Positions 1,541 through 59,838 of a stretch of 64,000 bases of DNA are shown one piece after another; the first letter of the stretch is position 1; the number at the start of each line of letters is the position of its first letter. A model generated the notes under the pieces. That model did not search any database. It was not told where the DNA came from and saw only the letters and a program-made list of their open reading frames with translations. The DNA lies in IMG/VR virus record IMGVR_UViG_3300045996_002451, positions 147,172 to 211,171 of that record; one strand, given 5' to 3'. The position numbers and the translations under genes are program-made. Origin of the DNA: a virus (lineage: Duplodnaviria; Heunggongvirae; Uroviricota; Caudoviricetes).

Positions 1541-1554
1541 GTTACACGGGTACC
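1541..1554. promoter_or_regulatory. Motif A variant (GTTACACGGGTACC).
   Basis: One-arm mismatch. 4 nt upstream of the lysin ATG. Confidence 0.4.
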
Positions 1555-1558
1555 CGAT

Positions 1559-2164
1559 ATGTTTGACTTCTTGCGGGCGCTCCGACGCGAACAGTTGCAG
1601 ACGAGTGTCGAACCTTTTTCGCGGGTGGTAGAACGCCTGGCGATGCTGAACCCGCAAGCCGCGGAGTTTCAGCCGACGTCGATCGACACCGGTACCAGCG
1701 AGACTGGTGCTACGTTTGACTCCACGGTAAATATCGGGGGTCCGGTTCCCACTCCGAGTGAGGGAACGGTCCAGATCGCCAGCGTACCGGGAGTCGAAGT
1801 AGTTTCGTGGATGAACGCGAAACAGCGGGTGGTGGACGCGGTGCTTTGGAGTGACGTCCAACGTATGGCCAAGGATCTAGGCTTTGGGATCCGGGTCATC
1901 AGCGGCTGGCGACCCCCGGGGAAAATGGGTCAGCGCGGACTGCACGTGCACAACAAAGCGCTGGACATTCAACCGGCAGGGCCTCGACAGGGATCGGCAC
2001 TGTTCAAGTCGCAAGGTGACCAGATGGCGACCTGGCTACAGCACCGCTCAGGCAGAGGCTACGTCCTGAACAAAACCAGCTACACCGGCAGCTCCTACTA
2101 CAGCATCTTGTGGTGGGTAGCAGATCATTACGATCACCTGCACATTGGGGCGCCTGGAAAGTAG
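1559..2164 (+). CDS. Peptidase M15-like (DD/LD-peptidase, Hedgehog-type) cell-wall hydrolase, probably a tail-associated lysin.
   Basis: The motifs 'ISGWRPPGKMGQRGLHVHNKALDIQP' and 'DHLHIG' match the SxxR...H...G.A.D...H zinc-binding signature of M15 peptidases. The gene lies in the tail module. Confidence 0.6.
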   Translation: MFDFLRALRREQLQTSVEPFSRVVERLAMLNPQAAEFQPTSIDTGTSETGATFDSTVNIGGPVPTPSEGTVQIASVPGVEVVSWMNAKQRVVDAVLWSDVQRMAKDLGFGIRVISGWRPPGKMGQRGLHVHNKALDIQPAGPRQGSALFKSQGDQMATWLQHRSGRGYVLNKTSYTGSSYYSILWWVADHYDHLHIGAPGK

Positions 2165-2175
2165 CAAGGACTAAG

Positions 2176-2742
2176 ATGTCACGGTACGAAGATTTGATGA
2201 CCGGGATCGCGCAGCGTGTCCTGAGTGAAGGCGCGCCGATCCCGAATGTCCAGGGCTACATCCCGAAAGACGGGATCAGCGAAAAAGATTGGACCTGCAC
2301 CGTACGGTATCCCAACCCGAAAGGTGGAATGGAAGCCGGACAGATTGCGGGGGGTGGCAGTTACCTGGAGTCGCAAGGGATCTCCCTCCCGCGCGCGCCA
2401 GGCGGCACCATTGAGGGTGTTCGGCAAAAGGTCAAGGAGCACGACTGCGCGGTACTCCTCGGCTTTCAAGGCAACGACATCGGCAAGCCGCACATCATCC
2501 AGTTGCTGGACATCACGCACGGCGTGGATGGTAAGCAGCAACAAAATACCGCGGAGCGGAGCAACCCCACGGCGGACCAGGCCAAGACTGCGGCCACTCC
2601 GGCAATGGCGGCACCCATTATGGGACCGCCGATCCCCCCGAATCTCGCCAGTAAGTACCCGCCTTCTCCGAGCGCTCAGGCCCACGTCCGCAGTGAGGCC
2701 AAACAGTTCAAAGAGTGGTTCAAGAAAGCGCAAGGTAAATGA
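2176..2742 (+). CDS. Hypothetical baseplate-module protein.
   Basis: ATG at 2176 preceded by AAGGAC. Position is between the lysin and the gp25-like gene. No confident family assignment. Confidence 0.4.
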   Translation: MSRYEDLMTGIAQRVLSEGAPIPNVQGYIPKDGISEKDWTCTVRYPNPKGGMEAGQIAGGGSYLESQGISLPRAPGGTIEGVRQKVKEHDCAVLLGFQGNDIGKPHIIQLLDITHGVDGKQQQNTAERSNPTADQAKTAATPAMAAPIMGPPIPPNLASKYPPSPSAQAHVRSEAKQFKEWFKKAQGK

Positions 2743-3365
2743 TGGGACTGGGAAAATCTTTCCGCGAGCTGATCCTGCGCGTCAAAGGCGAGACCCCGCA
2801 GAAGCGGGCAGAGGCGAAGAACTATCCCTCCGGGTACGAAGTAGGGCTGCGCCATCCGGATACCAGCGCCCACGTGCTGCTGGGCGATAACGGGATGGTG
2901 GACCTCAAAGCCAGCGCCGCACGCCTTCTACTCCAGAAGAGTAACGGCACGGCGTTCCTGGAAGGCTCGGCAGTCTCCTTGACCGGTAAGGACATCCACC
3001 TGCACGCCGATCGACTCTGGGTCCACGGCTGGCAGCAGTTCGATCCCCTCGGCATGTGGCACAGTCCAGTCGCGCCGCCTCCCGGAGACCTGACCTGGAC
3101 GTGGCGCTTTGCGCCCCTGGTCGGCAACAGCGCGGAGTTACTGGCTGCGCTGCTCTCGATGCCGTTTGTGGTGGGTGACCCGGCACAACCGCAGTACACG
3201 CGGCCCGGTCCGGGAGGCCCGGCGCACCCGCCCGGCTCCGGTCAGCACACCGCTTACCTGAGTTCGATGCTTCATCCTCAACCCCTTTTCGGACCCAACC
3301 GGCAGATGGAGATGCTCTTCAAGCATCTGGCGGCGTTGACCAAGGAACTGTCCCATGGCGAGTGA
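2739..3365 (+). CDS. Hypothetical baseplate-module protein, possibly a spike or hub component.
   Basis: ATGA stop/start overlap with the upstream gene. Sits in the position of gpV-like genes in Mu/P2-type baseplate operons. Sequence similarity is weak. Confidence 0.35.
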   Translation: MMGLGKSFRELILRVKGETPQKRAEAKNYPSGYEVGLRHPDTSAHVLLGDNGMVDLKASAARLLLQKSNGTAFLEGSAVSLTGKDIHLHADRLWVHGWQQFDPLGMWHSPVAPPPGDLTWTWRFAPLVGNSAELLAALLSMPFVVGDPAQPQYTRPGPGGPAHPPGSGQHTAYLSSMLHPQPLFGPNRQMEMLFKHLAALTKELSHGE

Positions 3366-3753: not shown

Positions 3754-3754
3754 T

Positions 3755-3770
3755 GTAGGACGCGTCATAC
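3755..3770. promoter_or_regulatory. Motif B near-palindrome (GTAGGACGCGTCATAC).
   Basis: Between the gp25-like gene and the glycosyltransferase gene. Confidence 0.45.
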
Positions 3771-3783
3771 ATGGAGCGAGCGG

Positions 3784-5548: not shown

Positions 5549-5572
5549 GGGGTGTTACACGTGTAACACCCC
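5549..5572. promoter_or_regulatory. 24-bp perfect palindrome GGGGTGTTACACGTGTAACACCCC, the symmetric form of motif A.
   Basis: Intergenic, between the Tat-signal gene and baseplate J. Confidence 0.5.
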
Positions 5573-11363: not shown

Positions 11364-14100
11364 CTACGCTTACAACTATAGCTACGGAACTCCCGTACTG
11401 GGTTCGCCTTCCCTAACCGGACCGGTCGCACCTGTGATGGAGCTGCAGGACGGAGAAGACCGCCTGCAGCTTTTTACGTTGCAGGGGGCGGAAAACTTTC
11501 TGCGCGCTTACGCCCAGCTTTCGGTACTGGAACAGGAAAGAAGGGTGACCTATTGGGTGCCACCCGAGCCCCGACCGACCACCCAAGCGTTAGGCGCCTA
11601 CCTCGGTGCGGACGTGCGTTACACGGGTAACGACTACACGCCGTGGATCCTGTCTCGCCCGCCCGATCCGGTATTGACCAAGGCAACTCGCTACGAAAGC
11701 TTCTACCTCCAGAACCACCTGGCGGTAGATGGGCACACCCAGCACTGGTATCCGGAGTATCCAGTACGCGACCTGCAGGAGCAGTTGCTTCGCGGGGTCA
11801 AGGGAACCCGCCCCAACGTACCCCTCCTGTATCTGGGCGGGGCCTTACCTGGAGGCACCGACGTGCCGCTGCATACCAACTGGTACCAGTATGCGGGGCA
11901 CTCCATGTATTGGAAGCTGCGTCCGGTGGTCGACCATCTTTCCGAAGCGACCGGTAGATTACTACGACAGATCGATCTCCAGCCCTGGAATGAGATGGAG
12001 CTGGAACCGCTCCTGTTTGACCCACTGGGTGAGTGGCAGATCCCGGAACTGATGGAGTGCTTGGCCTCGACCTCCACCGTTATCGGTCGACCGGGCCTGA
12101 CCACTCTCCTGGCTAGCATCCTCGGCAAACCGCTGCACCTTTACACGCCGGACAAGCTACGTATCGATTGGAACTTAGGTCCCCGGAAAGCGACGCAGTG
12201 GACGATTCCCTGGTCGAGTCTCGCTAAGTCGGACATTGACTTCTCATTCTACAACAACGTCTGGGGCGAGTTCCCGAAGCTGGTGGAGCCGAAGAACCGT
12301 CCCCTGCGCGTGGGCATCCTGACCCCGGCCATGCTGATTGGCGGCGTAGAGCAGTGGATCCTCTCCCTGGTCCAACACACAGATAGGCAGCGTCTCTCCT
12401 GGGAAGGCGTCGCCGTTCTTTATCCAGAAAACCTGGACACCCGGATGTCGGACCGCATCGAGCCGTACTGCCCGGTGGGTGTAGGCCTTGGTGAGGTTGC
12501 CCGGCTGTCCCGAAGTTGCGATGTCCTCCTGGCCTGGGGACTTCCGGAATGGTGGAACTTCCTACCTCCGGACCGTAAATGCCAGGTGGTCTACGTGAAC
12601 CACGGCGTGGGTGACTGGTCCACGGCTTCCTGTAAAGGCGCAAGCCATGCGAACGGCCTGGTAGCGGTCTCGACCGCATCCAAGGACTGCTTCCCGGTCA
12701 GCCACCGGTCCCGCGTCCAGGTGATCCCCAACGGAACCGACCGCAAGCGGCTGGAAACCAGCCAGACCAAGGAGTCGCAGAAGTGGGCCTGGGGGATCGC
12801 TCCGGATAAGAAGGTCCTGGGGTTCCTGGGACGCTTTGCGTATGAGAAGAACCCGGACCTCCTGGTCAGCGCTGTGGCCGCGCTGCCGGAAGACTGGGTC
12901 GGGGTGATGGTCGGCAGCGGCAGCCCGGAAGCCGAGTCCGGACTCAAGAGTCTGGCGGAGGCGTGCTGCCCGGGACGCATCTTCTTCCCCGGACCTACTG
13001 AGGACGTGGGCGGGGCGCTTACCGGGTTCGACGTCCTGCTCGTGCCTTCCCATGAAGAAGGCTTCTGTTACGTGGTGATCGAAGCCTGGTTGAACGGCAC
13101 GCCGGTGGTGGCGACTCCCACGGGGGTGGCTGCAGAAGAGGTCGGGCTGGTGGCGTACATTCAAGCCGACGCACTCGGTTATGAAGTAGCGGAAATCGTA
13201 GAGCAGACTTACTACGATAGCTGGCTGCCTGTCCTGCTGAAGGAAGGGGTGAGCACGGCTACTGAGAAATACAGTCAGACGGCGTTTGGTGCAAACTGGA
13301 CGAACTATCTTTGCAGCTTCCCAAAAATCGAGCGCCCGCAGGAGCAACTCTGGGATGTGCGTCAGTTGCCGTTGGAGTTGATTCCGGGTGTCCAGGTAGT
13401 CCTGGCCGCACACAACGCCGGTCCCTGGCTGCAGCGCTGCCTGGACTCCATCGAGGTCGCGATGGAAGGGCTGCACTGGGGACTCTTCCTGGCGGATGAC
13501 GCGAGCACCGACGACACCCTGGCGATCGCCAAGGCGCACCGCACCAGTGCGGACTACGTGCGCATCCAAAGCTTTGCTAAAGCCCGCACCACGGGGGAAG
13601 CCAAGAACCGCGCCCTCGCGCTGGGTGCCGACCTGCGGGAAACCCTTCCGGCAATCGTGCACATGGATGCCGATGACGTGATGATGCCAGGCCGCGTGCG
13701 CTTCTTGCTGGCGCAGGCAGTGCGCACCGGGAAGCCGTTGGTGCACGGCACGGTGCGTTTCCGTTCCGTACCGCCCCAAGGCGTGGCCCAGTTACTGGAA
13801 GTAGCCGGGGGTAACCGGGAACAGTACGAGGCAGCGAACTTAACGCCGTGTATTACCCTGCACCACGCGTGCCTGATCCCCGAAGACCACAAGCTCTTTT
13901 GTGAAGACCTGCGCGCCATCGAGGACGGCGAACTGTGGACCAGGCTCCGCCTCTCCGGCATCCAGAGTGTTCCTTGTCCGGGACCACTCTCCCATGATTA
14001 CTACCCGCACTGGAACAGCACGGCGTATAACCCGGAAACGGAAATAAACATCGAGCGCTACTATCGTCGACGCGCACTACTAAAGCAAGAGACCCTTTAG
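11350..14100 (+). CDS. Tri-domain glycosyltransferase: GT9-like, then GT4, then GT2.
   Basis: The N-terminal region 'VIGRPGLTTLLASILGKPLHLY' resembles the heptosyltransferase (GT9) C-half. The middle 'EGFCYVVIEAWLNGTPVVAT' is a GT4 E-x7-E motif. The C-terminal 'LADDASTDDT' and 'HMDADDVMMP' are GT2 DxD motifs. The start overlaps the fibre 2 stop within 'ATGATGATGAGTAA'. Confidence 0.7.
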   Translation: MMMSNYAYNYSYGTPVLGSPSLTGPVAPVMELQDGEDRLQLFTLQGAENFLRAYAQLSVLEQERRVTYWVPPEPRPTTQALGAYLGADVRYTGNDYTPWILSRPPDPVLTKATRYESFYLQNHLAVDGHTQHWYPEYPVRDLQEQLLRGVKGTRPNVPLLYLGGALPGGTDVPLHTNWYQYAGHSMYWKLRPVVDHLSEATGRLLRQIDLQPWNEMELEPLLFDPLGEWQIPELMECLASTSTVIGRPGLTTLLASILGKPLHLYTPDKLRIDWNLGPRKATQWTIPWSSLAKSDIDFSFYNNVWGEFPKLVEPKNRPLRVGILTPAMLIGGVEQWILSLVQHTDRQRLSWEGVAVLYPENLDTRMSDRIEPYCPVGVGLGEVARLSRSCDVLLAWGLPEWWNFLPPDRKCQVVYVNHGVGDWSTASCKGASHANGLVAVSTASKDCFPVSHRSRVQVIPNGTDRKRLETSQTKESQKWAWGIAPDKKVLGFLGRFAYEKNPDLLVSAVAALPEDWVGVMVGSGSPEAESGLKSLAEACCPGRIFFPGPTEDVGGALTGFDVLLVPSHEEGFCYVVIEAWLNGTPVVATPTGVAAEEVGLVAYIQADALGYEVAEIVEQTYYDSWLPVLLKEGVSTATEKYSQTAFGANWTNYLCSFPKIERPQEQLWDVRQLPLELIPGVQVVLAAHNAGPWLQRCLDSIEVAMEGLHWGLFLADDASTDDTLAIAKAHRTSADYVRIQSFAKARTTGEAKNRALALGADLRETLPAIVHMDADDVMMPGRVRFLLAQAVRTGKPLVHGTVRFRSVPPQGVAQLLEVAGGNREQYEAANLTPCITLHHACLIPEDHKLFCEDLRAIEDGELWTRLRLSGIQSVPCPGPLSHDYYPHWNSTAYNPETEINIERYYRRRALLKQETL

Positions 14101-14715: not shown

Positions 14716-14729
14716 GTTACCCGTGTAAC
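14716..14729. promoter_or_regulatory. Motif A (GTTACCCGTGTAAC).
   Basis: Intergenic, 22 nt upstream of the 14751 ATG. Confidence 0.5.
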
Positions 14730-20126: not shown

Positions 20127-20515
20127 TGGACACTAAGGTCATTCAGGTGGGGGACCGCTCCAATCTCCGCTCCACCATCAGTATGACGTTGAAGCGGGTG
20201 CAAGAAGAAAATCTTGGCATCGACTTCAACCTCTTTAGAAAAGTTGTAGGGATCCTCACACAACTAGAGGATCATCAACTTCCAGCAGTGCTCTCTGTGG
20301 CACGTACCGAAACAGAGACGTCCGGGTCGGCCCTTCTGCTAGGGTGGGCCTTGGGATCAGAGGTGTTGTTTTTTGTGCTCTTCTCTAAGGAAGGTATCGG
20401 AACCCGAACCGGAGTGCTCGAAGCCGACTCAGAGTACCAGCCTTATCTGGGCAACGATCTGATCGGGTTGATCCGCAAGGTGCTGGAAACAGAAGAGTTA
20501 CCGGTACTGCAGTAA
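20126..20515 (+). CDS. Hypothetical protein.
   Basis: An ATG at 20126 overlaps the upstream stop (TGATG). The longer M at 19961 would overlap the tailspike by 165 nt. Confidence 0.3.
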   Translation: MDTKVIQVGDRSNLRSTISMTLKRVQEENLGIDFNLFRKVVGILTQLEDHQLPAVLSVARTETETSGSALLLGWALGSEVLFFVLFSKEGIGTRTGVLEADSEYQPYLGNDLIGLIRKVLETEELPVLQ

Positions 20516-20518
20516 CGT

Positions 20519-20532
20519 GTTACACGGGTAAC
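20519..20532. promoter_or_regulatory. Motif A (GTTACACGGGTAAC).
   Basis: Intergenic, 32 nt upstream of the 20564 ATG. Confidence 0.5.
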
Positions 20533-20563
20533 AGGTGCGTGCACTGCTAAGAAACAAGAGAAC

Positions 20564-25311: not shown

Positions 25312-25325
25312 GTTACCCGTGTAAC
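25312..25325. promoter_or_regulatory. Motif A (GTTACCCGTGTAAC).
   Basis: Intergenic, 3 nt upstream of the 25328 ATG. Confidence 0.5.
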
Positions 25326-30019: not shown

Positions 30020-30033
30020 GGTACACGGGTAAC
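30020..30033. promoter_or_regulatory. Motif A variant (GGTACACGGGTAAC).
   Basis: Abuts the ATG at 30035. Confidence 0.4.
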
Positions 30034-33717: not shown

Positions 33718-33731
33718 GTTACCCGTGTAAC
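33718..33731. promoter_or_regulatory. Motif A (GTTACCCGTGTAAC).
   Basis: Intergenic, 16 nt upstream of the 33747 ATG. Confidence 0.5.
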
Positions 33732-39935: not shown

Positions 39936-40495
39936 GCCAGATCAAGACCAAACGCGAAGCGATCGACCTGGCACAGCGCGGACGTTTCGGCAATACGATG
40001 CCGGTGTGGAAAAGCCTGGAAGAGGTAGAGGCTAGCGGTTACACGGGTAACGTGATGGTCCGCTACGCCGAGCCGGGCAGCGCCTGGAATATACCCAGTG
40101 CCGATCTCGCCACGGCAGGTTATTGGGTCCACGCTTTCTGTCGCCAAGGGGCGCTGCTCGAAAAGTTTCACTTCACCGTCGGCGGAAGCTGCGGTAGCCG
40201 CCTGATCAACGGCGAGGTGATGCAAAACTACTTAGGCTTCCAACTGCACTACAACGACACGCAGCCGACGATGGTCATGCGGGAGTCGTTGAAGCAGGAA
40301 AACGGTGTCAAGAACGCCTCCGGCCTCCAGGCTAAGCTGATCCTCCAGCACTACATGGACCCCTCCAGCTACGCCGACCTGGAGGCGATCTGGGACGAAT
40401 GGCCGGATGCCGTGGTGGAGTTTACGGTGTTCAGTCAGGATGTGGGGAACATCCCTCGTCGCAACACCATCTTCTGGGAAGTACGCAGCTATTGA
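39932..40495 (+). CDS. Hypothetical protein.
   Basis: 187-aa ORF. Contains an in-coding motif A copy at 40038. Confidence 0.4.
   Translation: MSQIKTKREAIDLAQRGRFGNTMPVWKSLEEVEASGYTGNVMVRYAEPGSAWNIPSADLATAGYWVHAFCRQGALLEKFHFTVGGSCGSRLINGEVMQNYLGFQLHYNDTQPTMVMRESLKQENGVKNASGLQAKLILQHYMDPSSYADLEAIWDEWPDAVVEFTVFSQDVGNIPRRNTIFWEVRSY
40038..40051. promoter_or_regulatory. Motif A (GTTACACGGGTAAC) inside coding sequence.
   Basis: Lies within the 39932-40495 ORF. A possible internal regulatory site. Confidence 0.3.
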
Positions 40496-43568: not shown

Positions 43569-43582
43569 GTTACCCGTGTAAC
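43569..43582. promoter_or_regulatory. Motif A (GTTACCCGTGTAAC).
   Basis: Just after the GIY-YIG gene stop. Confidence 0.45.
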
Positions 43583-45018: not shown

Positions 45019-45024
45019 CACGCG

Positions 45025-45040
45025 TCATACATAGAGTCCG
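45025..45040. promoter_or_regulatory. Motif B variant (GTAGCACGCGTCATAC).
   Basis: Upstream of the GroES-like gene. Confidence 0.4.
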
Positions 45041-46626: not shown

Positions 46627-46657
46627 AAGGTCACCTGGAAACGGGTGACCTTTTTTA
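46627..46657 (+). terminator. Rho-independent terminator upstream of the sigma factor gene.
   Basis: AAGGTCACC-tggaaacg-GGTGACCTT followed by TTTTTT. Confidence 0.6.
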
Positions 46658-46662
46658 ACGCT

Positions 46663-47306: not shown

Positions 47307-47343
47307 AGCTAGTGGTGGCCCTAGGGCCACCACTAGCTTTTTG
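47307..47343 (+). terminator. Rho-independent terminator.
   Basis: A 32-bp perfect palindrome AGCTAGTGGTGGCCCTAGGGCCACCACTAGCT followed by TTTTT. Confidence 0.65.
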
Positions 47344-47356
47344 TTACACGGGTAAT
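47343..47356. promoter_or_regulatory. Motif A variant (GTTACACGGGTAAT).
   Basis: Immediately after the 47307 terminator, upstream of the nuclease gene. Confidence 0.4.
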
Positions 47357-47423: not shown

Positions 47424-47432
47424 GGGTAACAT
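47424..47432 (+). promoter_or_regulatory. Motif C (GGGTAACAT) overlapping the TTG at 47432.
   Basis: GGGGTAACATTGAG. Confidence 0.4.
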
Positions 47433-48951: not shown

Positions 48952-48984
48952 GGCACCCCTCCGAATCAGGAGGGGTGCCTTTTT
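48952..48984. terminator. Bidirectional rho-independent terminator at the convergence of the + and - arms.
   Basis: GGCACCCCTCC-gaatca-GGAGGGGTGCC with TTTTT downstream and AAAATAAG upstream, which reads as a T-run on the - strand. Confidence 0.65.
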
Positions 48985-50842: not shown

Positions 50843-50856
50843 GTTACCCGTGTAAC
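50843..50856. promoter_or_regulatory. Motif A (GTTACCCGTGTAAC).
   Basis: Between the SPFH gene stop and the - strand terminator. Confidence 0.5.
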
Positions 50857-52640: not shown

Positions 52641-52861
52641 TAGTTTCCTTTTCCGAACCGAGCTTGAAGGTCCTGCTCGATTTCTTGGTGTGCGCGCTGT
52701 TTCAACTCGGCGTCCAGCGCCGCGCGCTGACGTTTTTCCTCATCCTCTTGGGAGAGGCGCTGCCAGTCCTGCTTGATCCGTCTCCACACGCGCGCCGCGG
52801 TGAAGCCGAGCACTAAGCCCAGGATCAGCAGTAAAAACATGTTCAGCCAGATTGCTGTCAT
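52640..52861 (-). CDS. Small single-TM protein co-encoded with the SPFH pair, an NfeD-like accessory candidate.
   Basis: 'IWLNMFLLLILGLVLGF' TM segment then a charged coiled coil. ATGT/ATGA overlaps on both sides. Confidence 0.4.
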   Translation of the reverse strand: MTAIWLNMFLLLILGLVLGFTAARVWRRIKQDWQRLSQEDEEKRQRAALDAELKQRAHQEIEQDLQARFGKGN

Positions 52862-54510
52862 TCTTGGTCCTTGTGATTTCTCACCGCGTCCAGGAACGCG
52901 TTGAACAGGGGGTGCGCTGCCTCGAACTGACTCTTGTACTCGGGGTGGTACTGGACACCGACAAAGAAAGGATGCACGGATGGATCCAGCTCAACCGCAT
53001 CGTACGTATCTCGACCATTGTCCTTGGCCATCGCAGAGATGGTCAAGCCTCCCTCGATCAGTTTTGGCGCATACTCCGGGTTCAGTTGGTACCGGTGCCG
53101 GTAGCGCTCTTGCACGACTTCCCCTTCGATGTAGATCTCCTGAAGGCGCGTCCCGGACCCAAAGGCCACCGAGACGTTTCCCTTACGTAAGGCACCCCGA
53201 ATATCGGTGGAGGAGAAGCGTTGGATAACCACCGGATGCGGCGTCTTCGGATCGATCTCCGTACTGTTTGCCCCGGCCAGGGCCAGCACGTTTTGCGCGT
53301 ACTCGACCACCGCCATCTGGAACCCATAGCAGAGTCCCAGGTAAGGCAGCTTCTTTTCTCGCGCGTAACGGATCGCACGGATCTTACCGTCGGCGCCGCG
53401 GCTGCCCCACCCCTGCGGGATGATCACCCCGTCGCAGTACTTCATGGTGGTCTCGAAGCTTTCAGGATCTTGTTCGATCCCTTCCGCATCGATCCATTCT
53501 ACCAGGACCCGCACGCCGGTATGCGTCTCAGAGTGCTTCAGCGCCTCAATGACGGACACGTAGCTATCGGGAAGCTGGTAGTCGCCGGAACCGAGGTACT
53601 TGGCCACGATGCCGATGCGAACGGCGGCGCCCTCTCCGTTCAAGAGGAGATTGACCCGCTTCTTCCAGTTCGCTAACTTGGGCCGGGCAATGACCGTAAC
53701 CCCCAGGCGCTTCAGTAGTTTCTGCGCGAACTTCTGCTCTTCGAACAAGAGCGGCACCTGGTAGATGGTCTTCACGTCCGGGGCCAGGATGATCTCATCC
53801 TCACGCAGGTGCGTGTTGGCTGCGATCTTCTCCTTGCGCACCCCGTCTACCACGTACTTAGCGGCGGAACGAAGCACCAGGAAATCCGGCTGGATCCCCG
53901 CATCATAAAGCTGGCGAATGGAGAGCTGTACCGGTTTGCTCTTCATCTCGCCCAGGCTCTCGATGTACGGCAGGTACGCCACGTGAACGTGCGCCACCCG
54001 TCCGGGATGCTTCTTGGTCATCATCCGCGCAGCTTCCAGGAAGACCTGGATCTGGTACTCACCCACCGTGCCGCCAAACTCGCAGATGACGAAGTCGGCT
54101 TCATGGTGTTTCCCGCAGGCTTCCACGCGGCGGATGACCGCCTCGGGCACGTGGGGTACCATCTCCAAGGTCTTCCCGCCGAAGGCGTGGGAGCGCTCCT
54201 CATCCATGATCTCGCGAAGCACGCTGCCCATCGTGAGGTAGTTGTGGGCCGTCGTGTCTTCACCGATGAAGCGCTCGTAGTGTCCCAGGTCTTGGTCGGT
54301 CTCGAGCCCGTCCGAAGTGACAAACACTTCGCCGTGCTCCACCGGGTTCATCGTGCCTGCATCGCCATTCAAGTACGCGTCGGCTTTCATGCAAGCCACG
54401 GAATAACCGCGCGTCCGAAGTAGCGTGCCAAGGGAAGCAGCCACGATCCCCTTACCCAGACCGGAGATCACGCCTCCGGAAATGAAAATGTAACGTGTGT
54501 GGTTAGCCAT
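52858..54510 (-). CDS. pyrG: CTP synthase.
   Basis: N-terminal 'TRYIFISGGVISGLGKGI' is the canonical PyrG start. The GATase domain has 'LGLCYGFQMAVVEYA' and 'YHPEY'. 550 aa. Confidence 0.85.
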   Translation of the reverse strand: MANHTRYIFISGGVISGLGKGIVAASLGTLLRTRGYSVACMKADAYLNGDAGTMNPVEHGEVFVTSDGLETDQDLGHYERFIGEDTTAHNYLTMGSVLREIMDEERSHAFGGKTLEMVPHVPEAVIRRVEACGKHHEADFVICEFGGTVGEYQIQVFLEAARMMTKKHPGRVAHVHVAYLPYIESLGEMKSKPVQLSIRQLYDAGIQPDFLVLRSAAKYVVDGVRKEKIAANTHLREDEIILAPDVKTIYQVPLLFEEQKFAQKLLKRLGVTVIARPKLANWKKRVNLLLNGEGAAVRIGIVAKYLGSGDYQLPDSYVSVIEALKHSETHTGVRVLVEWIDAEGIEQDPESFETTMKYCDGVIIPQGWGSRGADGKIRAIRYAREKKLPYLGLCYGFQMAVVEYAQNVLALAGANSTEIDPKTPHPVVIQRFSSTDIRGALRKGNVSVAFGSGTRLQEIYIEGEVVQERYRHRYQLNPEYAPKLIEGGLTISAMAKDNGRDTYDAVELDPSVHPFFVGVQYHPEYKSQFEAAHPLFNAFLDAVRNHKDQE

Positions 54511-55540: not shown

Positions 55541-55544
55541 AGTG

Positions 55545-55560
55545 TAACACGCGTCATACA
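55545..55560. promoter_or_regulatory. Motif B variant (GTAACACGCGTCATAC).
   Basis: Abuts the 55540 start codon on the - strand. Confidence 0.4.
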
Positions 55561-55615: not shown

Positions 55616-56014
55616 CTACGATGGGATCGCGTCTTCCGGATCGTCAAAATCATACAGGCGTACTGGTGCTTGTTCTGGCTCCGGGGGCGTTACTGCTCGC
55701 TTCTGATTCTTAGGCATCCAACCTTTGTACGGCTTAGGCTCCGGAGGACTGATTTTGATAGGAATGGCTGCCATCTGAGCGATCAACTGGTCTTGCAGTT
55801 TTGTGTAATCTTTTTTCGAAGCACGCGCGGATCCCTGCTGAACTGTGCGTTCAGCTCTAAGCTTTTCCGCGACGCTTTGATCGTAGACCAGTTCAGTGCC
55901 TTCCCAATTAAGGGGTACTAAACAGATGCGGCAGTAAGAAGGTTGCTCAGCTATTTTCAAGCGGGTGTAACAAACCGGGCAACCCGTCGTCTTAGAGATG
56001 TCTAGGCTTGGCAT
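55616..56014 (-). CDS. N-terminal zinc-ribbon protein with C-terminal 'VRLYDFDDPEDAIPS'.
   Basis: 'CPVC ... CRIC' plus the shared terminal motif. Confidence 0.45.
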   Translation of the reverse strand: MPSLDISKTTGCPVCYTRLKIAEQPSYCRICLVPLNWEGTELVYDQSVAEKLRAERTVQQGSARASKKDYTKLQDQLIAQMAAIPIKISPPEPKPYKGWMPKNQKRAVTPPEPEQAPVRLYDFDDPEDAIPS

Positions 56015-56838
56015 GGTACGCTAAAGAACTCCCGCTGAGGCAGCATCACCGCGGTCAGTAGACCGCCGTAGCAACTTCCGGTATCGATCCCAATCTTTTC
56101 CGGACGGTTCAAAGGCTTCCAGCTATCTTTCATCCCAGGTTGCCAGATACCACTCTGCACCTCCGTGGACTGCGGCGTGTGTCCGAAGATCACCGGCTTG
56201 TCCAGACGATGCTTGGTGTCGTAGATCCATTCGTCCCGGATCCAGAGCTTCTGAAAACGGCTGCACTGGCCGGGACGCTTCCCCGGCTGGAAACCGGCGT
56301 GCACGTAGTAACCGTGCTCGTCCTCATAGTCCAGCTTCAGGGAAGCAAACCAGTTCATCAAATCTTGGCCCAGCAGGGAGGTGATCCCTTCCGCGGCCAC
56401 GCCGAGAAATACCTTTTCCAGCAGTTTCAAGGTGACTGCGCGGCGTCCACCTGCGACATCGATCAGGCGCGCAAACTCCACCGGACCCAGGAAGCTTTTC
56501 ATCGCTTCGACGCCGCCGTTGCTTTCCCAGAGACCCGCATCGTAGAGTCTATGTCCACCCTGTTCCACCCGCAGGTGATCCAGCAGCATGTCCTCATGGT
56601 TGCCGATTAAGGTCACCACGGGTCCGGGCCAATAAGCCTGGCACTCTTTGGCCACTCCCCATTCCTGCAGCTCCTGCACGATGCGGATCACACCCCGACT
56701 GTCGGGGCCCCGGTCGATGTAGTCGCCTACAAAGACCAGGGTATCCCCTTCTTCAGCCAGGGGCTCGATCTGCGCCAGCAACTGCTGCAAAGGTTCGGCA
56801 AAGCCGTGTACATCACCGATCGCAAAGGTTTTACTCAT
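56002..56838 (-). CDS. Ser/Thr protein phosphatase (PPP-family metallophosphoesterase, lambda-PPase / ApaH-like).
   Basis: 'GDVHG', 'GDYIDRG' and 'GNHE' metallophosphatase motifs. Confidence 0.75.
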   Translation of the reverse strand: MSKTFAIGDVHGFAEPLQQLLAQIEPLAEEGDTLVFVGDYIDRGPDSRGVIRIVQELQEWGVAKECQAYWPGPVVTLIGNHEDMLLDHLRVEQGGHRLYDAGLWESNGGVEAMKSFLGPVEFARLIDVAGGRRAVTLKLLEKVFLGVAAEGITSLLGQDLMNWFASLKLDYEDEHGYYVHAGFQPGKRPGQCSRFQKLWIRDEWIYDTKHRLDKPVIFGHTPQSTEVQSGIWQPGMKDSWKPLNRPEKIGIDTGSCYGGLLTAVMLPQREFFSVPCQA

Positions 56839-57804: not shown

Positions 57805-57808
57805 GCGG

Positions 57809-59383
57809 TTACTCCGGCTCGGCACTGCCTTCGAGGATGCGCGCCTGGGTCTTAGGATACAGGGCGTACCACTTCTTAAGCAAGCGTCGATAGTCGTTGG
57901 CGTATTTGTACAGCGCCCCTACGCCCGTGCGCAGCTCGCACTCGTAGAGGAACTTGTCTGCTGTGGTGCCGTGCTCGTAGCTACTCTCCGCGCCCAACAC
58001 CAACCAGTAGACATAGGTAGAGTACCCTTGCGTCAGCAGGTTCAACGCCGTACGCGTCATCGTCCGCCCGATCTCCGCAAGCGCTTCTAGCTGTTTGCGT
58101 TCCTCCTGGGCCCAGCTCGGCAACTCATCCTCGGCCCAGTAGAAACCGACCGGGATCAGCGGCGCGAACTTGTACCCCGTACGGTGCCGGTTCATGTCCC
58201 GCAGACAAGCGAAGTCTACGGCTCCGATCGAAAAGCGTACAAAGGTACGCCGCAGCCAGGCCCCTACCCAGGCATACCGGTTCTCGTGGAACTCCAGGTC
58301 CTGGTAGAACTCCCCGTCGAAGAAGTTGCGTTCTTCTTGGTGCCCGTAGAACGTGTGCTCTGTTTCAGGACACCAGACGGCCAGGTGAACCGGCGAAGTC
58401 GCACTGGAACGGGTGATCGGAAGCGTCTCATTCAGGAAGGTCTGCCCGATCCCGGTATAGGAAGTCTGCCGCGCGGCCTTGAACTCCTGCTCGAAGCCTT
58501 GGGTCCAGTACGCCTTGGCCACGGCGTGCTTGACCAGTCGCGGGGTAACCAGCTCCAGTTCTTCCCGCAGCAGCTTGCCTAGCGCCTGGCCTTCGGACAG
58601 CGGTTGAGACAGCAGCTTCTGGATCAACTCGGTCCAGCCGCGGGCGTTCATGACCAGCATCACGTTGGTCTGTACGGCAGCCGGGATGAAGCAGCGTGCC
58701 CGGTCGAAGGCGTAGTTGCGCTTCAGCCGTTCCAGCTTGAGCCGGGCTTTTTCGTCGGTCTTGGCTTCTTCGATGAGTGAACTGGGGATCTTGGCGACGG
58801 TGGGATCCTTTTCGAAGATTCCGGACCAGAGCGCGTACGCCTGATTGTAGGCGTCAAACGCGAGCGCGGTCTGCTGCGTCCATTCAGGGGCGTCCACTAC
58901 GCCTAGCGCCTCTGCCGAAGGTAAGCCTTCCGCGGAGAACTTGCAGTAGCGCGTGCTCGTCTCCTGTCCGGAGGCCGTCGGCACCTGACTCCAGATCCAG
59001 TAGACCAGGTAGACCGAGACGTTGTCGAGGAACATCGCGACTGGCGCCATGTCCGCAATCGAGGCATGGCCGTAGTCCACCATCTTGAAGATGGAGTCGA
59101 CCCCTTTGTCCGGGTTGCCGGGGCGATAATTGTTCGCTACGGTGTGGAAGCGTTCGTAATCGTCATCCCATTCCGCACGGTGGCTTTCTGCCACGAGCGT
59201 AAGGAACTTCTCGAGGGTTTCCTGCTTGTTACCAAGATCAATCTTTTCGAGGATCGCCTCCAAGCCCTCTCCATTGCGACTGTAGCGCGCGCCGGTGGCA
59301 GCTAGTTCTTCGGCGGTCAGGGCAACCTTCCCCGCGGCCAGCGCGGCTTCAGTGGGCTTTAGGGCGACGTATGTAACTTTCAT
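57809..59383 (-). CDS. Tandem-domain flavin-dependent thymidylate synthase (ThyX)-like protein.
   Basis: 'ARCFIPAAVQTNVMLVMNARGWTELI' matches the ThyX AR..LP...T...N.R motif. The first half has 'ETSTRY' without RHR. The second half has 'NRHRTGYKF'. 524 aa is about twice ThyX length. Confidence 0.45.
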   Translation of the reverse strand: MKVTYVALKPTEAALAAGKVALTAEELAATGARYSRNGEGLEAILEKIDLGNKQETLEKFLTLVAESHRAEWDDDYERFHTVANNYRPGNPDKGVDSIFKMVDYGHASIADMAPVAMFLDNVSVYLVYWIWSQVPTASGQETSTRYCKFSAEGLPSAEALGVVDAPEWTQQTALAFDAYNQAYALWSGIFEKDPTVAKIPSSLIEEAKTDEKARLKLERLKRNYAFDRARCFIPAAVQTNVMLVMNARGWTELIQKLLSQPLSEGQALGKLLREELELVTPRLVKHAVAKAYWTQGFEQEFKAARQTSYTGIGQTFLNETLPITRSSATSPVHLAVWCPETEHTFYGHQEERNFFDGEFYQDLEFHENRYAWVGAWLRRTFVRFSIGAVDFACLRDMNRHRTGYKFAPLIPVGFYWAEDELPSWAQEERKQLEALAEIGRTMTRTALNLLTQGYSTYVYWLVLGAESSYEHGTTADKFLYECELRTGVGALYKYANDYRRLLKKWYALYPKTQARILEGSAEPE

Positions 59384-59393
59384 CGCGTTCTTT

Positions 59394-59804
59394 CTAGTTG
59401 AGGACCGCAGCTTTTCGGGGGAGGGGGCGAGACGGTACGTCGTCCATGTCTTGCATGTCCGGACAGTCGGGTCCGTGTACCGGACAGATCCCTTCCTTCA
59501 AACCCTGCATCGCCAGCAGGACCTGGGTGACCTTACCTAACGTATCCATCGCGACATCGATACCGACGGCAAGCACGGCATCTATCTGCTTGGGCATATC
59601 GGTATGCCCTTCCACCAGTTCGACCATGGCAGATACGAGCTTCCAGCGTACGGCGTCGTCGCCTTCCAGCACCAGGTTGTCCAGACTGAGGCTCACGGGA
59701 GGTTCGGGGATCCCCTGTGCTTTACGACTCAGCGCTTCCTGGGAGATCCGCTTGGTCGTTTCAACCAATGCTTGCATGTTTTCCAGGGTTAAATCTCTGC
59801 GCAT
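59394..59804 (-). CDS. Hypothetical protein.
   Basis: 136-aa ORF downstream of a hairpin and motif A at 59825. Confidence 0.4.
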   Translation of the reverse strand: MRRDLTLENMQALVETTKRISQEALSRKAQGIPEPPVSLSLDNLVLEGDDAVRWKLVSAMVELVEGHTDMPKQIDAVLAVGIDVAMDTLGKVTQVLLAMQGLKEGICPVHGPDCPDMQDMDDVPSRPLPRKAAVLN

Positions 59805-59824
59805 CCCAGTGTTCCTAACTACGG

Positions 59825-59838
59825 GTTACCCGTGTAAC
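59825..59838. promoter_or_regulatory. Motif A (GTTACCCGTGTAAC).
   Basis: 20 nt upstream (on the - strand) of the 59804 start codon. Confidence 0.5.

What the first reader, a model, noticed from the sequence alone, without database searches (positions are those of the whole stretch)
1541..59838. Recurrent 14-bp inverted repeat GTTAC-N4-GTAAC (motif A) at 12 mostly intergenic sites
GTTACCCGTGTAAC or its reverse complement GTTACACGGGTAAC occurs at 14716, 20519, 25312, 33718, 40038, 43569, 50843 and 59825. The symmetric form GTTACACGTGTAAC occurs at 5555, inside a 24-bp perfect palindrome. One-mismatch variants occur at 1541, 30020 and 47343. The chance expectation for an exact 14-mer in 64 kb is below 0.001. 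Sites lie 3-45 nt upstream of start codons on both arms and in both orientations. That pattern fits a dimeric regulator operator or a phage-specific promoter element that synchronises many operons.
Basis: seen in the sequence. Interest (0 to 1): 0.8.

Follow-up and report, generated by a model that had tools for sequence, protein, structure and literature searches.

The report
Evenly spaced palindromic protein-binding sites
A 14-letter near-palindrome recurs about every 5,000 bases at gene boundaries of an uncultured giant phage and is kept in distant relatives, so it is most likely a docking site for a paired DNA-binding protein acting across the whole genome, not a promoter.

Summary
There are 13 sites, not 12, matching GTTAC[A/C]CG[T/G]GTAAC with at most one mismatch (0 expected). 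No weaker copies exist.

- **Placement:** 11 of 13 sites lie in the 5% of non-coding DNA.
- **Spacing:** gaps are 3.1-9.0 kb with CV 0.35, far more even than chance (P about 1e-4).
- **Conservation:** the same 14-mer sits at orthologous junctions in relatives with 54-69% amino-acid identity. It also sits inside an orthologous glycosyltransferase gene, where it is the longest identical DNA run between proteins only 33% identical.
- **Form:** orientation is mixed and flips between orthologous sites. Natural variants are one-sided and destroy the weak hairpin (-2 kcal/mol). This indicates recognition of duplex DNA by a dimer.
- **Against a promoter:** some sites lie 1-4 nt from start codons, one lies between a stop codon and a terminator, and two are intragenic.

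The 16-bp form TGTTACACGTGTAACA matches the ParB site parS at 14 of 16 positions, but no ParB gene or other clear DNA-binding gene is in the window.

Best reading: a dispersed operator or nucleation array for an unidentified dimeric protein. The closest analogues are KorB OB sites, Cluster O 17-bp repeats and stoperators. The binder and its effect are unknown.

The parts
1541..1554 (.). Motif A site, variant GTTACACGGGTACC. It lies 38 nt after the stop of the SLT/tape-measure-like gene and 4 nt before the ATG at 1559. A GGGTAACAT motif sits 12 nt upstream (1520-1528).
   Evidence: L103 6167 lies at the orthologous junction.
5554..5567 (.). Motif A site, fully symmetric GTTACACGTGTAAC. With flanks it reads TGTTACACGTGTAACA. 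It lies 17 nt upstream of the baseplate J gene (5585).
   Evidence: Orthologous to L103/L104 9952, ATTACACGGGTAAC.
5549..5572 (.). Perfect 24-bp palindrome GGGGTGTTACACGTGTAACACCCC that embeds site 5554. This is the only copy with a stable hairpin (-19 kcal/mol as RNA).
11618..11631 (.). Motif A site, exact, intragenic at codons 90-94 (RYTGN) of glycosyltransferase gene 11350-14100.
   Evidence: L103 14964 lies at the orthologous codons. The 18 identical nt are the longest identical run in a gene pair with 33% aa and 47% nt identity.
14716..14729 (.). Motif A site, exact. It lies 1 nt after the stop of GT2 gene 14115-14714 and 21 nt before the ATG at 14751.
20519..20532 (.). Motif A site, exact. 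It lies at the end of a 437-nt gene-free stretch, 31 nt before the ATG at 20564 (167-aa gene).
   Evidence: Orthologous sites are L120 10377 (exact, opposite orientation) and L114 20647 = L117 8422, GGTACACGTGTAAC.
20497..20516 (.). Extra GTTAC-N10-GTAAC inverted repeat directly abutting site 20519.
25312..25325 (.). Motif A site, exact. It fills an 18-nt intergenic gap: 2 nt after the stop of the 1064-aa virion gene and 2 nt before the ATG at 25328.
30020..30033 (.). Motif A site, variant GGTACACGGGTAAC. It lies 9 nt after a stop codon and 1 nt before the ATG at 30035.
   Evidence: This variant does not fold.
33718..33731 (.). Motif A site, exact. It lies 8 nt after a stop codon and 15 nt before the GTG at 33747.
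40038..40051 (.). Motif A site, exact, intragenic at codons 36-40 (YTGN) of gene 39932-40495.
43569..43582 (.). Motif A site, exact. It lies 11 nt after the stop of a GIY-YIG endonuclease-like ORF (43051-43557).
47343..47356 (.). Motif A site, variant GTTACACGGGTAAT. It lies 4 nt after the intrinsic terminator hairpin at 47307-47338 (within its T run) and 67 nt upstream of a GGGTAACAT motif (47424).
50843..50856 (.). Motif A site, exact, on the leftward arm. It lies 3 nt after the stop of SPFH gene 50860-51717 and 7 nt before the terminator at 50835-50810.
59825..59838 (.). Motif A site, exact, on the leftward arm. It lies just downstream of a hairpin (59847-59880) and 20 nt before the start of gene 59394-59804.

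Best explanation
Motif A, (T)GTTAC[A/C]CG[T/G]GTAAC(A), is a recognition site on double-stranded DNA for a dimeric sequence-specific DNA-binding protein. The protein has not been identified. It could be phage-encoded outside this window, one of the window's ORFans, or a host protein.

The phage keeps these sites as a dispersed, evenly spaced array of about one per 4.9 kb. They are placed where they cost least, in the few bases between genes, and occasionally inside a gene.

The array therefore works at the scale of the whole genome, not as the promoter of each downstream gene. The most likely mode is nucleation or loading sites, or roadblock-type operators, from which the bound protein covers or silences roughly 5-kb domains. 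KorB does this from its OB operators on plasmid RK2, ParB from parS, and Noc from NBS.

**Shown:**
- the sites exist and are non-random;
- they are intergenic and evenly spaced;
- they are conserved at orthologous positions across relatives with 54-69% aa identity, including within a coding region;
- they are independent of orientation;
- hairpin potential is weak, and natural variants abolish it.

**Inferred:**
- a protein dimer binds the site;
- binding has a genome-wide regulatory or organising effect;
- the binder may belong to the ParB/KorB class. This rests only on sequence resemblance to parS/NBS and on the site layout.
For: **Non-randomness.** There are 13 sites against 0 expected, and the score distribution is bimodal with no weak sites.

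**Selection on position.** 11 of 13 sites lie in 5.3% non-coding DNA (P = 6.5e-13). Some intergenic gaps consist almost only of the motif, for example the 18-nt gap 25310-25327.

**Even spacing.** CV is 0.35 and the minimum gap is 3.1 kb. P is about 1e-4 against random junction placement. The two intragenic sites split what would otherwise be 9.2- and 9.9-kb gaps.

**Conservation in relatives.**
- L103/L104 (69% aa identity in baseplate J, GC 66%) carry the same 14-mer at three junctions orthologous to window 1541, 5554 and 11618.
- L120 and L114/L117 (54-56% aa identity) carry it at the junction orthologous to window 20519.
- L114 also has three GTTAC-N4-GTAAC copies with other centres against 0.01 expected. 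This points to the arms as the contacted bases.

**DNA-level constraint in coding sequence.** The glycosyltransferase orthologues share 33% aa and 47% nt identity. Their longest identical run, 18 nt, is the motif. All six codons are identical, against 44% codon identity at other identical residues.

**Duplex, dimer-type recognition.**
- Orientation relative to transcription is 8:4:1, and it flips between orthologous sites.
- All variants are single-sided changes at positions 1, 2, 13 or 14.
- The RNA hairpin is only -1.8 to -2.5 kcal/mol, and the 1541 and 30020 variants do not fold.
- Arm centres are 9 bp apart, about one helical turn.

**Resemblance to ParB-family sites.** The 5553-5568 site TGTTACACGTGTAACA matches consensus parS TGTTTCAC-GTGAAACA at 14 of 16 positions. 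The common form has one parS-type half (A at position 6) and one NBS-type half (C at position 6). Consensus sequences are from PMC7383237.

**Precedent.** KorB loads at dispersed OB operators and slides to silence distant promoters (PMC11790492).

**A separate promoter candidate exists.** The strand-specific motif GGGTAACAT has 6 copies, all on the coding strand, against 0.28 expected. It is conserved in L103, where leaders contain a Shine-Dalgarno sequence. This frees motif A from the promoter role.
Against: - **No binder found.** Pfam, PHROGs or NCBIfam scans of about 90 window ORFs gave no ParB domain and no HTH regulator. The only hit is a sub-threshold ECF-sigma-like protein. About 147 kb of the 211-kb source contig could not be seen.
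- **The parS resemblance may be convergence.** It rests on a CACGTG-centred palindrome. Position 4 differs in both halves, and canonical ParB discriminates against C at position 6 (PMC7383237).
- **Even spacing is not shown outside this lineage.** L114+L117 has one canonical site in 35 kb, and L120 has one in 11 kb.
- **Closeness to gene starts is also what a classical operator would show.** Sites range from -75 to +270 relative to starts, so a simple repressor operator cannot be separated from a loading site.
- **The asymmetric centre is unexplained.** It is strongly conserved in 12 of 13 sites, which a symmetric homodimer does not explain.
- **No expression or binding data exist.**
Confidence: 0.6

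Rival explanations
1. Phage-specific promoter, or the -35-like element of one, read by the phage's ECF-like sigma factor (46645-47289). Each site would start transcription of the downstream gene block.
For: - Eight sites lie 1-31 nt upstream of start codons.
- One half of the motif (GGGTAAC) is identical to the core of the strand-specific promoter-like motif GGGTAACAT.
- ECF -35 elements typically contain GTAAC or GAAAC (my own knowledge).
- The window encodes a weak ECF-type sigma homologue.
- In relatives, the junction upstream of baseplate J is a terminator-plus-promoter boundary.
Against: - The motif is palindromic with no strand bias (8:4:1), and orientation flips between orthologous sites.
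- Sites 1541, 25312 and 30020 end 1-4 nt before the start codon, which leaves no room for a transcript start and leader.
- Site 50843 fires straight into a terminator 7 nt away.
- Two sites are inside genes, far from the next start.
- No conserved -10 or CGT element sits at a fixed distance.
- Relatives without the motif have 0-9 nt gaps at the same junctions, so those genes do not need a promoter there.
Confidence: 0.12
2. RNA-level element. A 5-bp stem with a 4-nt loop in the polycistronic mRNA would serve as a processing site, a 3'-end stabiliser, or a device for translational coupling at gene junctions.
For: - The sites hug stop codons, 1-11 nt for most. In L103 the TAA stop lies inside the motif.
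- The stem forms in either orientation.
- Site 5554 sits in a stable 10-bp-stem hairpin.
- Several sites adjoin other hairpins or terminators.
Against: - The hairpin is marginal at -1.8 to -2.5 kcal/mol. In context its stability is mostly no better than shuffles.
- The natural variants at 1541, 30020, L103 9952 and L114 20647 are uncompensated and break the stem.
- The loop differs with orientation (CCGU, ACGG or ACGU), yet orthologous sites flip orientation.
- Exact 14-nt conservation, including stem bases that could covary, is not what a structural RNA shows.
- There is no U tract.
Confidence: 0.07
3. Target of a DNA-cutting, nicking or recombination enzyme. Examples are fixed single-strand interruptions as in T5 or phiKMV-type phages, or short linker sequences that promote module exchange between co-infecting relatives.
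For: - The layout is regular, dispersed and junction-located.
- The centre is asymmetric and its orientation alternates for 10 consecutive sites (P = 0.033). That pattern would place nicks on alternate strands.
- GIY-YIG (43051-43557, ending 11 nt before site 43569), RecU-like and Cas4-like nuclease genes are nearby.
Against: - The alternation is not conserved. L103 has three sites in the same orientation, and orthologous sites flip.
- Known phage nick sites are strand-specific and not palindromic (my own knowledge).
- Gene order around the sites is collinear with relatives, with no sign of rearrangement at them.
- Nuclease adjacency occurs at only one site.
Confidence: 0.1
4. Sites for a host global regulator captured by the phage. 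One candidate is host ParB, with the sites acting as parS mimics. Another is a LexA-type repressor with a 5-N4-5 box. Either would tie the phage to host cell state or titrate the host factor.
For: - The site matches consensus parS at 14 of 16 positions.
- The 5-4-5 architecture is that of Gram-positive SOS boxes, CGAAC-N4-GTTCG. TTAC-N3-GTAA is the Bdellovibrio LexA box (my own knowledge).
- No binder gene is visible in the window.
Against: - The same exact 14-mer is kept in phages with GC contents of 60%, 64-65% and 66%. They probably infect different hosts, which fits a phage-borne binder better.
- The host is unknown.
- C at position 6 in one half disfavours canonical ParB (PMC7383237).
Confidence: 0.08
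5. Selfish or neutral short palindromic insertion (REP/MITE-like) with no function for the phage.
For: - The sites are intergenic and identical, and they look 'inserted' into otherwise tight junctions.
Against: - The unit is only 14 bp, with no flanking conservation, terminal repeats or target duplications.
- It is conserved at orthologous positions across 54-69% aa divergence and under purifying selection in a coding region.
- It is evenly spaced.
Confidence: 0.02

Closest known systems
KorB operators (OB) of IncP plasmid RK2, and ParB-family nucleation sites generally (parS/ParB, NBS/Noc)
   Same: - Short palindromes are bound by a dimer.
- About a dozen copies are dispersed over about 60 kb of a mobile replicon (12 OB sites on RK2, from my own knowledge). 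Some are promoter-proximal, some distant or intragenic.
- Action is at a distance, by loading a sliding clamp (PMC11790492).
- Sequence resembles parS at 14 of 16 positions for the symmetric copy. The two halves differ at exactly the position (6, A versus C) that separates parS from NBS (PMC7383237).
   Different: - No ParB-fold protein was found in the window.
- Position 4 differs from parS in both halves.
- Canonical parS sites cluster near the origin.
- Nothing is known about CTP dependence or spreading here.
- The replicon is a lytic-looking jumbo phage, not a plasmid or chromosome.
17-bp dyad-symmetric repeats of Cluster O mycobacteriophages (TGTTCGG-N3-CCGAACA; PMC4351075)
   Same: - Arms are invariant inverted repeats with a biased asymmetric centre that shows no meaningful orientation.
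- There are more than 30 copies per phage genome, many between ORFs, some near 5' ends of genes and some intragenic.
[quoted passage not shown]
- They are predicted to bind a dimeric protein.
- Their function is unknown.
   Different: - The sequence and spacer differ (7-3-7 versus 5-4-5).
- Cluster O repeats are denser toward one genome end, whereas these are evenly spaced.
- About one third of Cluster O sites are intragenic, against 2 of 13 here.
Stoperators of Cluster A mycobacteriophages (L5 gp71 repressor)
   Same: - Many operator copies sit in short intergenic gaps inside long operons on both arms.
- The proposed action is on elongating RNA polymerase or global silencing, not on single promoters.
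   Different: - Stoperators are asymmetric 13-bp sites bound by a monomer and have a fixed orientation relative to transcription (PMC4351075 discussion; my own knowledge). Motif A is palindromic with mixed orientation.
- No repressor, integrase or evidence of temperate life is seen in the window.
Dispersed repressor operators of temperate phages (phiC31 conserved inverted repeats; P1 C1 operators)
   Same: Ten to twenty copies of one operator are scattered across the genome, including late regions, and are bound by one phage regulator (my own knowledge).
   Different: - Those operators are tied to an identified immunity repressor and mostly overlap promoters.
- P1 operators are asymmetric.
- None is reported to be evenly spaced.

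Membership tests
ParB/parS-type nucleation sites (including Noc/NBS and KorB/OB) | A 14-16 bp palindrome matching the family's site consensus (parS TGTTTCAC-GTGAAACA; NBS TATTTCCC-GGGAAATA) | tested here: inconclusive
   The symmetric copy 5553-5568, TGTTACACGTGTAACA, matches parS at 14 of 16 positions. The common form matches at 13 of 16, with one A6 (parS-like) half and one C6 (NBS-like) half. Position 4 is A instead of T in both halves. I estimate the chance of such a match to one given motif at about 4e-4 per half-site. After allowing for the dozens of known motifs I compared from memory, it is about 1-2%.
ParB/parS-type nucleation sites (including Noc/NBS and KorB/OB) | A ParB-fold protein (N-terminal CTPase/ParBc domain plus HTH) encoded by the replicon or host | tested here: not met
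   No ParBc or other ParB-family hit appeared in about 90 window ORFs scanned with Pfam, PHROGs or NCBIfam. The remaining roughly 147 kb of the 211-kb contig and the host genome could not be examined.
ParB/parS-type nucleation sites (including Noc/NBS and KorB/OB) | CTP-dependent clamp closure and spreading or sliding from the site | not testable with these tools
   This needs biochemistry or ChIP-seq. A phage CTP synthase gene (52858-54510) is only circumstantial.
Stoperators (Cluster A mycobacteriophages) | Many copies in short intergenic gaps within operons on both arms | tested here: met
   11 of 13 sites lie in intergenic gaps of 18-437 nt on both arms.
Stoperators (Cluster A mycobacteriophages) | Asymmetric site with one orientation relative to transcription | tested here: not met
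   The arms are palindromic. Centre orientation relative to transcription is 8:4:1, and it flips between orthologous sites.
Stoperators (Cluster A mycobacteriophages) | Cognate immunity repressor and temperate lifestyle | tested here: inconclusive
   No repressor or integrase was detected in the window. The rest of the genome was not seen.
Cluster O-type dyad repeats | Invariant inverted arms, a biased asymmetric centre without meaningful orientation, and dispersal both between and within genes | tested here: met
   compared with the description in PMC4351075. The sequence itself is unrelated, so this is an analogue, not a homologue.
Phage-specific promoter | Fixed orientation and a workable, roughly constant distance to the downstream gene start or transcript start | tested here: not met
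   Orientation is mixed. Distance to the next start codon ranges from 1 to 149 nt. Three sites lie within 4 nt of the start codon, two are intragenic, and one lies just upstream of a terminator.
Phage-specific promoter | Transcript 5' ends at the sites | not testable with these tools
   No transcriptome is available for this uncultured phage.
Intrinsic terminator or structured RNA element | Stable stem, a U tract for terminators, and pairing kept by compensatory change | tested here: not met
   Free energy is -1.8 to -2.5 kcal/mol and there is no U tract. Variants are one-sided and unfold the stem. No Rfam family matches. Genuine terminators exist elsewhere.
REP/MITE-like mobile palindromes | A longer unit with conserved flanks or terminal repeats, and presence/absence polymorphism instead of orthologous conservation | tested here: not met
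   Only 14-16 bp are conserved. Sites are orthologous in L103, L114/L117 and L120.
LexA/SOS box of 5-N4-5 type | Match to the host's LexA box, with boxes upstream of host SOS genes | not testable with these tools
   The host is unknown. Only the architecture (5-4-5) is shared with CGAAC-N4-GTTCG.

The most novel reading that the evidence does not exclude
The phage chromosome carries a regular array of hybrid parS/NBS-like sites, one per about 5 kb, which extrapolates to about 40 over 211 kb. These would load a ParB-family CTP-dependent clamp, either phage-encoded outside the window or hijacked from the host.

The clamp would coat, silence or organise the jumbo genome domain by domain. The second palindrome in the window, motif B (TGTATGACGCGTCATACA, 6 copies next to terminators and promoter-like regions), would act as the KorA-like clamp-arresting partner operator.

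This would be the first KorB/KorA-style long-range silencing or chromosome-organising system described on a virulent jumbo phage.
Probability: 0.15. Interest if true: 0.85.

Novelty: new variant of a known kind. Interest (0 to 1): 0.55.

Why it matters
Dispersed palindromic repeats are known in several phage genomes, for example Cluster O mycobacteriophages, but their function is still open. This case adds several things.

- **Direct evidence of DNA-level selection.** The motif sits at orthologous junctions across relatives with 54-69% amino-acid identity, and it is preserved inside a gene whose protein has diverged to 33% identity.
- **A statistically even spacing.** This argues for a genome-scale role such as domain insulation, clamp loading or chromosome organisation, as opposed to gene-by-gene promoter control.
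- **A concrete, testable lead.** The resemblance to parS/NBS can be checked directly.

If the binder proves to be a ParB/KorB-like clamp, long-range clamp-mediated silencing would extend from plasmids and ICEs to lytic jumbo phages.

On the practical side, the motif, together with motifs B and C, gives a first regulatory 'grammar' for an uncultured jumbo-phage lineage. It also gives a bait sequence for finding the regulator.

Tried and rejected
**Source and relatives**
- No near-identical phage exists in INPHARED. Protein matches there are remote only.
- The source contig (JGI, 211,171 bp) could not be fetched.
- A scan of IMG/VR for the 14-mer gave only single chance hits. The one multi-hit locus, L009, is a coding repeat (YxGNY) in a 1405-aa protein.
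- Scans of viral, metagenome and genome contigs for baseplate J relatives added little.
- A viral-contig scan for the 17-mer CGTTACACGGGTAACGA, taken from the intragenic glycosyltransferase site, found nothing.
- The third homologue search, on the ThyX-like protein, returned mainly bacterial-type ThyX, and no closer phage relative could be picked out. It was effectively wasted.

**Literature**
- No paper contains the motif sequence.

**Other explanations for the asymmetric centre**
- Restriction-site avoidance does not explain it. CACGTG is not avoided, at 15 observed against 17 expected. Avoidance of CCCGGG may explain why no site has C at position 6 in both halves.

**Equivalent palindromes in relatives lacking motif A**
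- The candidate GGACA-N3-TGTCC upstream of baseplate J in L105 does not recur in L105 or L115.

**Promoter partner elements**
- No ECF-type partner element (CGT about 16 nt downstream) is consistently present at motif A or motif C sites.

**Search for a binder**
- Pfam, PHROGs and NCBIfam scans found no DNA-binding domain apart from the weak sigma-like hit.
- Single-sequence AlphaFold models were low-confidence: pLDDT 46 for the sigma-like protein and 51 for the 231-aa protein downstream of site 33718.
- Foldseek against the PDB gave nothing.

**Missing site in the 9-kb gap**
- A PWM scan found no degenerate motif A in 50.8-59.8 kb. Only a motif B copy lies there, at 55543.

**Alternating orientation**
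- It is nominally significant (P = 0.033) but not conserved in relatives, so I treat it as unexplained and probably chance.

Full report
**1. What is there**

A search for GTTAC-N4-GTAAC finds 10 exact copies against 0.05 expected. A search for GTTACCCGTGTAAC with up to 1 mismatch finds 13 distinct sites against 0.00 expected. They start at 1541, 5554, 11618, 14716, 20519, 25312, 30020, 33718, 40038, 43569, 47343, 50843 and 59825.

Allowing 2-3 mismatches adds only one chance-level hit. A PWM built from the sites separates them (at least 20.9 bits) from everything else (at most 8.4 bits). So there is no tail of weak sites.

The consensus is GTTAC[A/C]CG[T/G]GTAAC, with a weak T and A preference at the flanking positions. 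Symmetrised, T occurs at 14 of 26 flanks. This gives the 16-mer TGTTAC..GTAACA.

Twelve of 13 sites are asymmetric at the centre, CCGT or its complement ACGG. One is fully symmetric (ACGT) and lies in a 24-bp perfect palindrome at 5549-5572.

**2. Genomic setting**

The window is part of a 211,171-bp JGI metagenome contig. The window's own proteins are returned as P0001, P0026 and P0045, each with that contig length.

It is a contractile-tailed jumbo phage with no close relative in GenBank phages. Recognisable genes include:
- baseplate J, a sheath initiator and a large SLT-containing protein;
- three glycosyltransferases;
- CTP synthase, dCTP deaminase, a dCMP-deaminase-like protein, a long ThyX and a P-loop kinase;
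- two SPFH proteins, a GroES-like protein, and GIY-YIG, RecU-like and Cas4-like nucleases;
- a weak ECF-type sigma homologue.

Genes run rightward to about 49 kb and leftward from 64 kb to 49.2 kb, converging on a bidirectional terminator at 48952-48979. My gene model is a GC3-periodicity heuristic curated by hand, not a formal gene caller. It covers 94.7% of the window.

**3. Placement**

Eleven of 13 sites fall in the 5.3% non-coding DNA (P = 6.5e-13). Several intergenic gaps are little more than the motif, for example 25310-25327, which is 18 nt.

Distance to the upstream stop codon is 1-11 nt for most sites. Distance to the downstream start is 1-31 nt for eight sites and 70-149 nt for three.

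The two intragenic copies lie early in their genes, at codon 90 of 916 and codon 36 of 187. Both are in the reading frame xGT TAC ACG GGT AAC.

Three sites adjoin intrinsic terminators or terminator-like hairpins, but on either side of them:
- 47343 lies just after a terminator;
- 50843 lies between a stop codon and a terminator;
- 59825 lies just after a hairpin.

**4. Even spacing (new)**

Gaps are 4013, 6064, 3098, 5803, 4793, 4708, 3698, 6320, 3531, 3774, 3500 and 8982 bp. The mean is 4857 and the CV is 0.35.

Three null models were tried. One was uniform placement. The second placed 11 sites at random among the 31 usable intergenic gaps. The third placed them among all 82 junctions. Each of the last two added two random positions for the intragenic sites.

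Under all three, P is about 1e-4 for a CV this low and at most 1e-5 for a minimum gap this large. For the 11 intergenic sites alone, P is 0.0025. The two intragenic sites split what would otherwise be 9.2- and 9.9-kb gaps.

**5. Conservation in relatives**

Baseplate J homologues define a family of uncultured jumbo phages with GC content from 36% to 70%.

- *L103/L104, the closest relative (69% aa identity, GC 66%).* It has the same 14-mer at 6167, 9952 (ATTACACGGGTAAC) and 14964, against 0.00 expected. Spacing is 3.8 and 5.0 kb. Gene order places these at the junctions and codons orthologous to window 1541, 5554 and 11618.
- *The intragenic pair.* The two glycosyltransferases share only 33% aa and 47% nt identity. 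The longest identical nucleotide run in the whole gene, 18 nt (CGTTACACGGGTAACGAC), is the motif. All six codons are identical, although only 44% of identical residues elsewhere use the same codon. This is direct evidence for selection on the DNA sequence itself.
- *A second lineage (54-56% aa identity, GC 64-65%).* It has the motif at the junction upstream of the 171-aa gene, orthologous to window 20519. L120 10377 is exact GTTACCCGTGTAAC, in the opposite orientation to the window. L114 20647 (the same site as L117 8422) is GGTACACGTGTAAC.
- *Arms-only copies.* L114 and L117 also carry four GTTAC-N4-GTAAC copies with other centres inside genes: three in L114 against 0.01 expected, and one more in L117. 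At least one is not conserved in L120.
- *Lineages without the motif.* L105, L112, L115, L116, L118 and L121 have no canonical copy of the motif in the 14-21 kb surveyed. Their gaps at the same junctions are 0-9 nt.

The element is therefore a lineage-specific addition, not something the flanking genes need.

**6. DNA or RNA; monomer or dimer**

Relative to transcription, the centre reads ACGG at 8 sites, CCGT at 4 and ACGT at 1. Orthologous sites flip.

The RNA hairpin is marginal at -1.8 to -2.5 kcal/mol. The natural variants at positions 2 and 13 (1541, 30020) do not fold at all. All variants, in the window and in relatives, are uncompensated single-sided changes at positions 1, 2, 13 or 14. 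The inner TAC-N-CG-N-GTA never varies in canonical sites.

This is the pattern of a duplex site read by a dimer whose two recognition elements lie one helical turn apart. It is not the pattern of a structured RNA. No Rfam family matches.

**7. Why it is not the promoter**

- There is no room for a transcript start and leader at three sites.
- One site lies immediately upstream of a terminator.
- Two sites are intragenic.
- Orientation is mixed.
- No partner element is found.

A different motif fits a promoter far better. GGGTAACAT has 6 copies against 0.28 expected, all on the coding strand of the rightward arm. It occurs after terminators and upstream of genes. It is conserved at two orthologous places in L103, followed there by Shine-Dalgarno-containing leaders of 16-33 nt. 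It shares the heptamer GGGTAAC with one half of motif A. That relationship is unexplained.

A third motif, the 18-bp palindrome TGTATGACGCGTCATACA (motif B), has 6 copies. One search found 13 hits to its 13-mer core at up to 2 mismatches, against 1.4 expected. It lies next to terminators and gene starts. It is conserved at an orthologous junction in L103.

**8. Comparison with known systems**

- *Site architecture.* The 5-4-5 form is that of classical dimer operators: 434-type operators, FNR-type boxes and Gram-positive SOS boxes (my own knowledge).
- *Site sequence.* The symmetric 16-mer matches consensus parS TGTTTCAC-GTGAAACA at 14 of 16 positions. The two halves of the common form differ at position 6 (A versus C). 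That is one of the two positions that separate parS from the Noc site NBS, TATTTCCC-GGGAAATA (PMC7383237).
- *Site layout.* About a dozen copies per 60 kb, at mixed distances from genes, recalls KorB OB operators on RK2. KorB is a ParB-family CTP clamp that loads at OB and slides to silence distant promoters (PMC11790492).
- *Phage precedents.* The nearest are the Cluster O 17-bp dyad repeats. These are described as invariant arms with a biased but unoriented centre, more than 30 copies, not associated with promoters, and of unknown function (PMC4351075). Cluster A stoperators are also close, but they are asymmetric and oriented, unlike motif A.

Membership in the ParB/parS family is not established. 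No ParB-fold protein or any clear DNA-binding protein was found among about 90 window ORFs. However, 70% of the genome is unseen.

**9. Verdict**

The promoter half is not.

Most likely (about 0.6), motif A is a dispersed array of binding sites for a dimeric DNA-binding protein acting genome-wide. Whether that means roadblock-type silencing, clamp loading or chromosome organisation cannot be decided here. I put about 0.15 on a ParB/KorB-like clamp system specifically.

The conserved asymmetric centre is unexplained: 12 of 13 sites are asymmetric, P = 0.0017 if the halves were independent. The apparent alternation of orientation is also unexplained: 9 of 11 adjacent pairs alternate, P = 0.033, but the pattern is not conserved in relatives.

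Interest is moderate. It is a well-supported new variant of a known but poorly understood kind of phage genome feature, with one testable lead that could make it considerably more interesting.

Noticed in passing
window 3754-3771, 21691-21708, 32560-32577, 38980-38997, 45014-45031, 55543-55560; L103 8495-8512: There is a second recurrent element, an 18-bp palindrome TGTATGACGCGTCATACA (motif B). Its 13-mer core gives 13 hits at up to 2 mismatches against 1.4 expected. Most copies are intergenic and sit next to strong terminators or gene starts. An orthologous copy in L103 lies between the sheath-initiator and glycosyltransferase genes. It may be a promoter-overlapping operator.
   Followed up: partly
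window 1520, 14104, 31563, 32614, 42960, 47424 (all + strand); L103 5638 and 17144: There is a third recurrent element, GGGTAACAT (motif C). It has 6 copies against 0.28 expected, all on the coding strand. It occurs after terminators and just upstream of genes, and it is conserved at two orthologous places in L103, where Shine-Dalgarno-containing leaders follow. It is the best promoter candidate (TAACAT resembles a -10 element). It shares GGGTAAC with one half of motif A.
   Followed up: partly
whole window: The palindromes CAGCTG, GCCGGC, GAGCTC and CGGCCG are completely absent (0 observed against 38, 22, 18 and 15 expected). CCCGGG is depleted (14 against 38). This is a strong signature of avoiding host restriction enzymes.
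   Followed up: no
window 60236-60709 (- strand): This 474-nt gene-free stretch has very strong predicted RNA structure (MFE -214 kcal/mol, z = -6.1 against shuffles), including an approximately 20-bp stem. No Rfam family matches. It may be a structured non-coding RNA or a regulatory region.
   Followed up: partly
window 20127-20563: This 437-nt stretch lies upstream of site 20519 and has no convincing coding signal. Its predicted fold is moderately strong (z = -3.1). The overlapping ORF 19961-20515 has no family match.
   Followed up: partly
window 34911-35531, 37369-37881, 40407-41303, 52858-54510, 56002-56838, 57809-59383: A nucleotide-metabolism set is present: dCTP deaminase, a P-loop kinase (AAA_33), a dCMP-deaminase-like protein, CTP synthase, a metallophosphoesterase and a long (524-aa) ThyX. 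Among the few ThyX homologues that carry an organism name are MAGs labelled Armatimonadota, Abditibacteriaceae and Akkermansiaceae. This may reflect dNTP-pool remodelling or DNA base modification, and it gives a weak hint about the host.
   Followed up: no
window 50860-51717 and 51717-52640 (- strand): Two adjacent SPFH/Band 7 paralogues are encoded by the phage.
   Followed up: no
window 43051-43557, 44416-45018, 47432-48604, 45062-45604: This region holds a free-standing GIY-YIG endonuclease-like ORF that ends 11 nt before motif A site 43569. It also holds a RecU-like resolvase, a Cas4/PD-(D/E)XK-like exonuclease and a GroES-like Cpn10. The annotated TTG start of 47432-48604 may really be the ATG at about 47471, which is preceded by GAGGA.
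   Followed up: no
L105 9800-10000, L115 9850-10000, L112 9856-9880, L114 9920-9965: In relatives lacking motif A, the junction upstream of baseplate J carries a terminator-like hairpin. L105 and L115 also have conserved TGTCC-rich sequence there. So this junction looks like a transcription-unit boundary across the family.
   Followed up: partly
L009 3384-4645 (IMGVR_UViG_3300034790_000094): An unrelated AT-rich viral contig has four GTTAC-N4-GTAAC copies within 1.3 kb. They are a coding repeat (S/Y-x-G-N-Y-T-R) inside a 1405-aa ORF. This is a false lead for the motif.
   Followed up: yes
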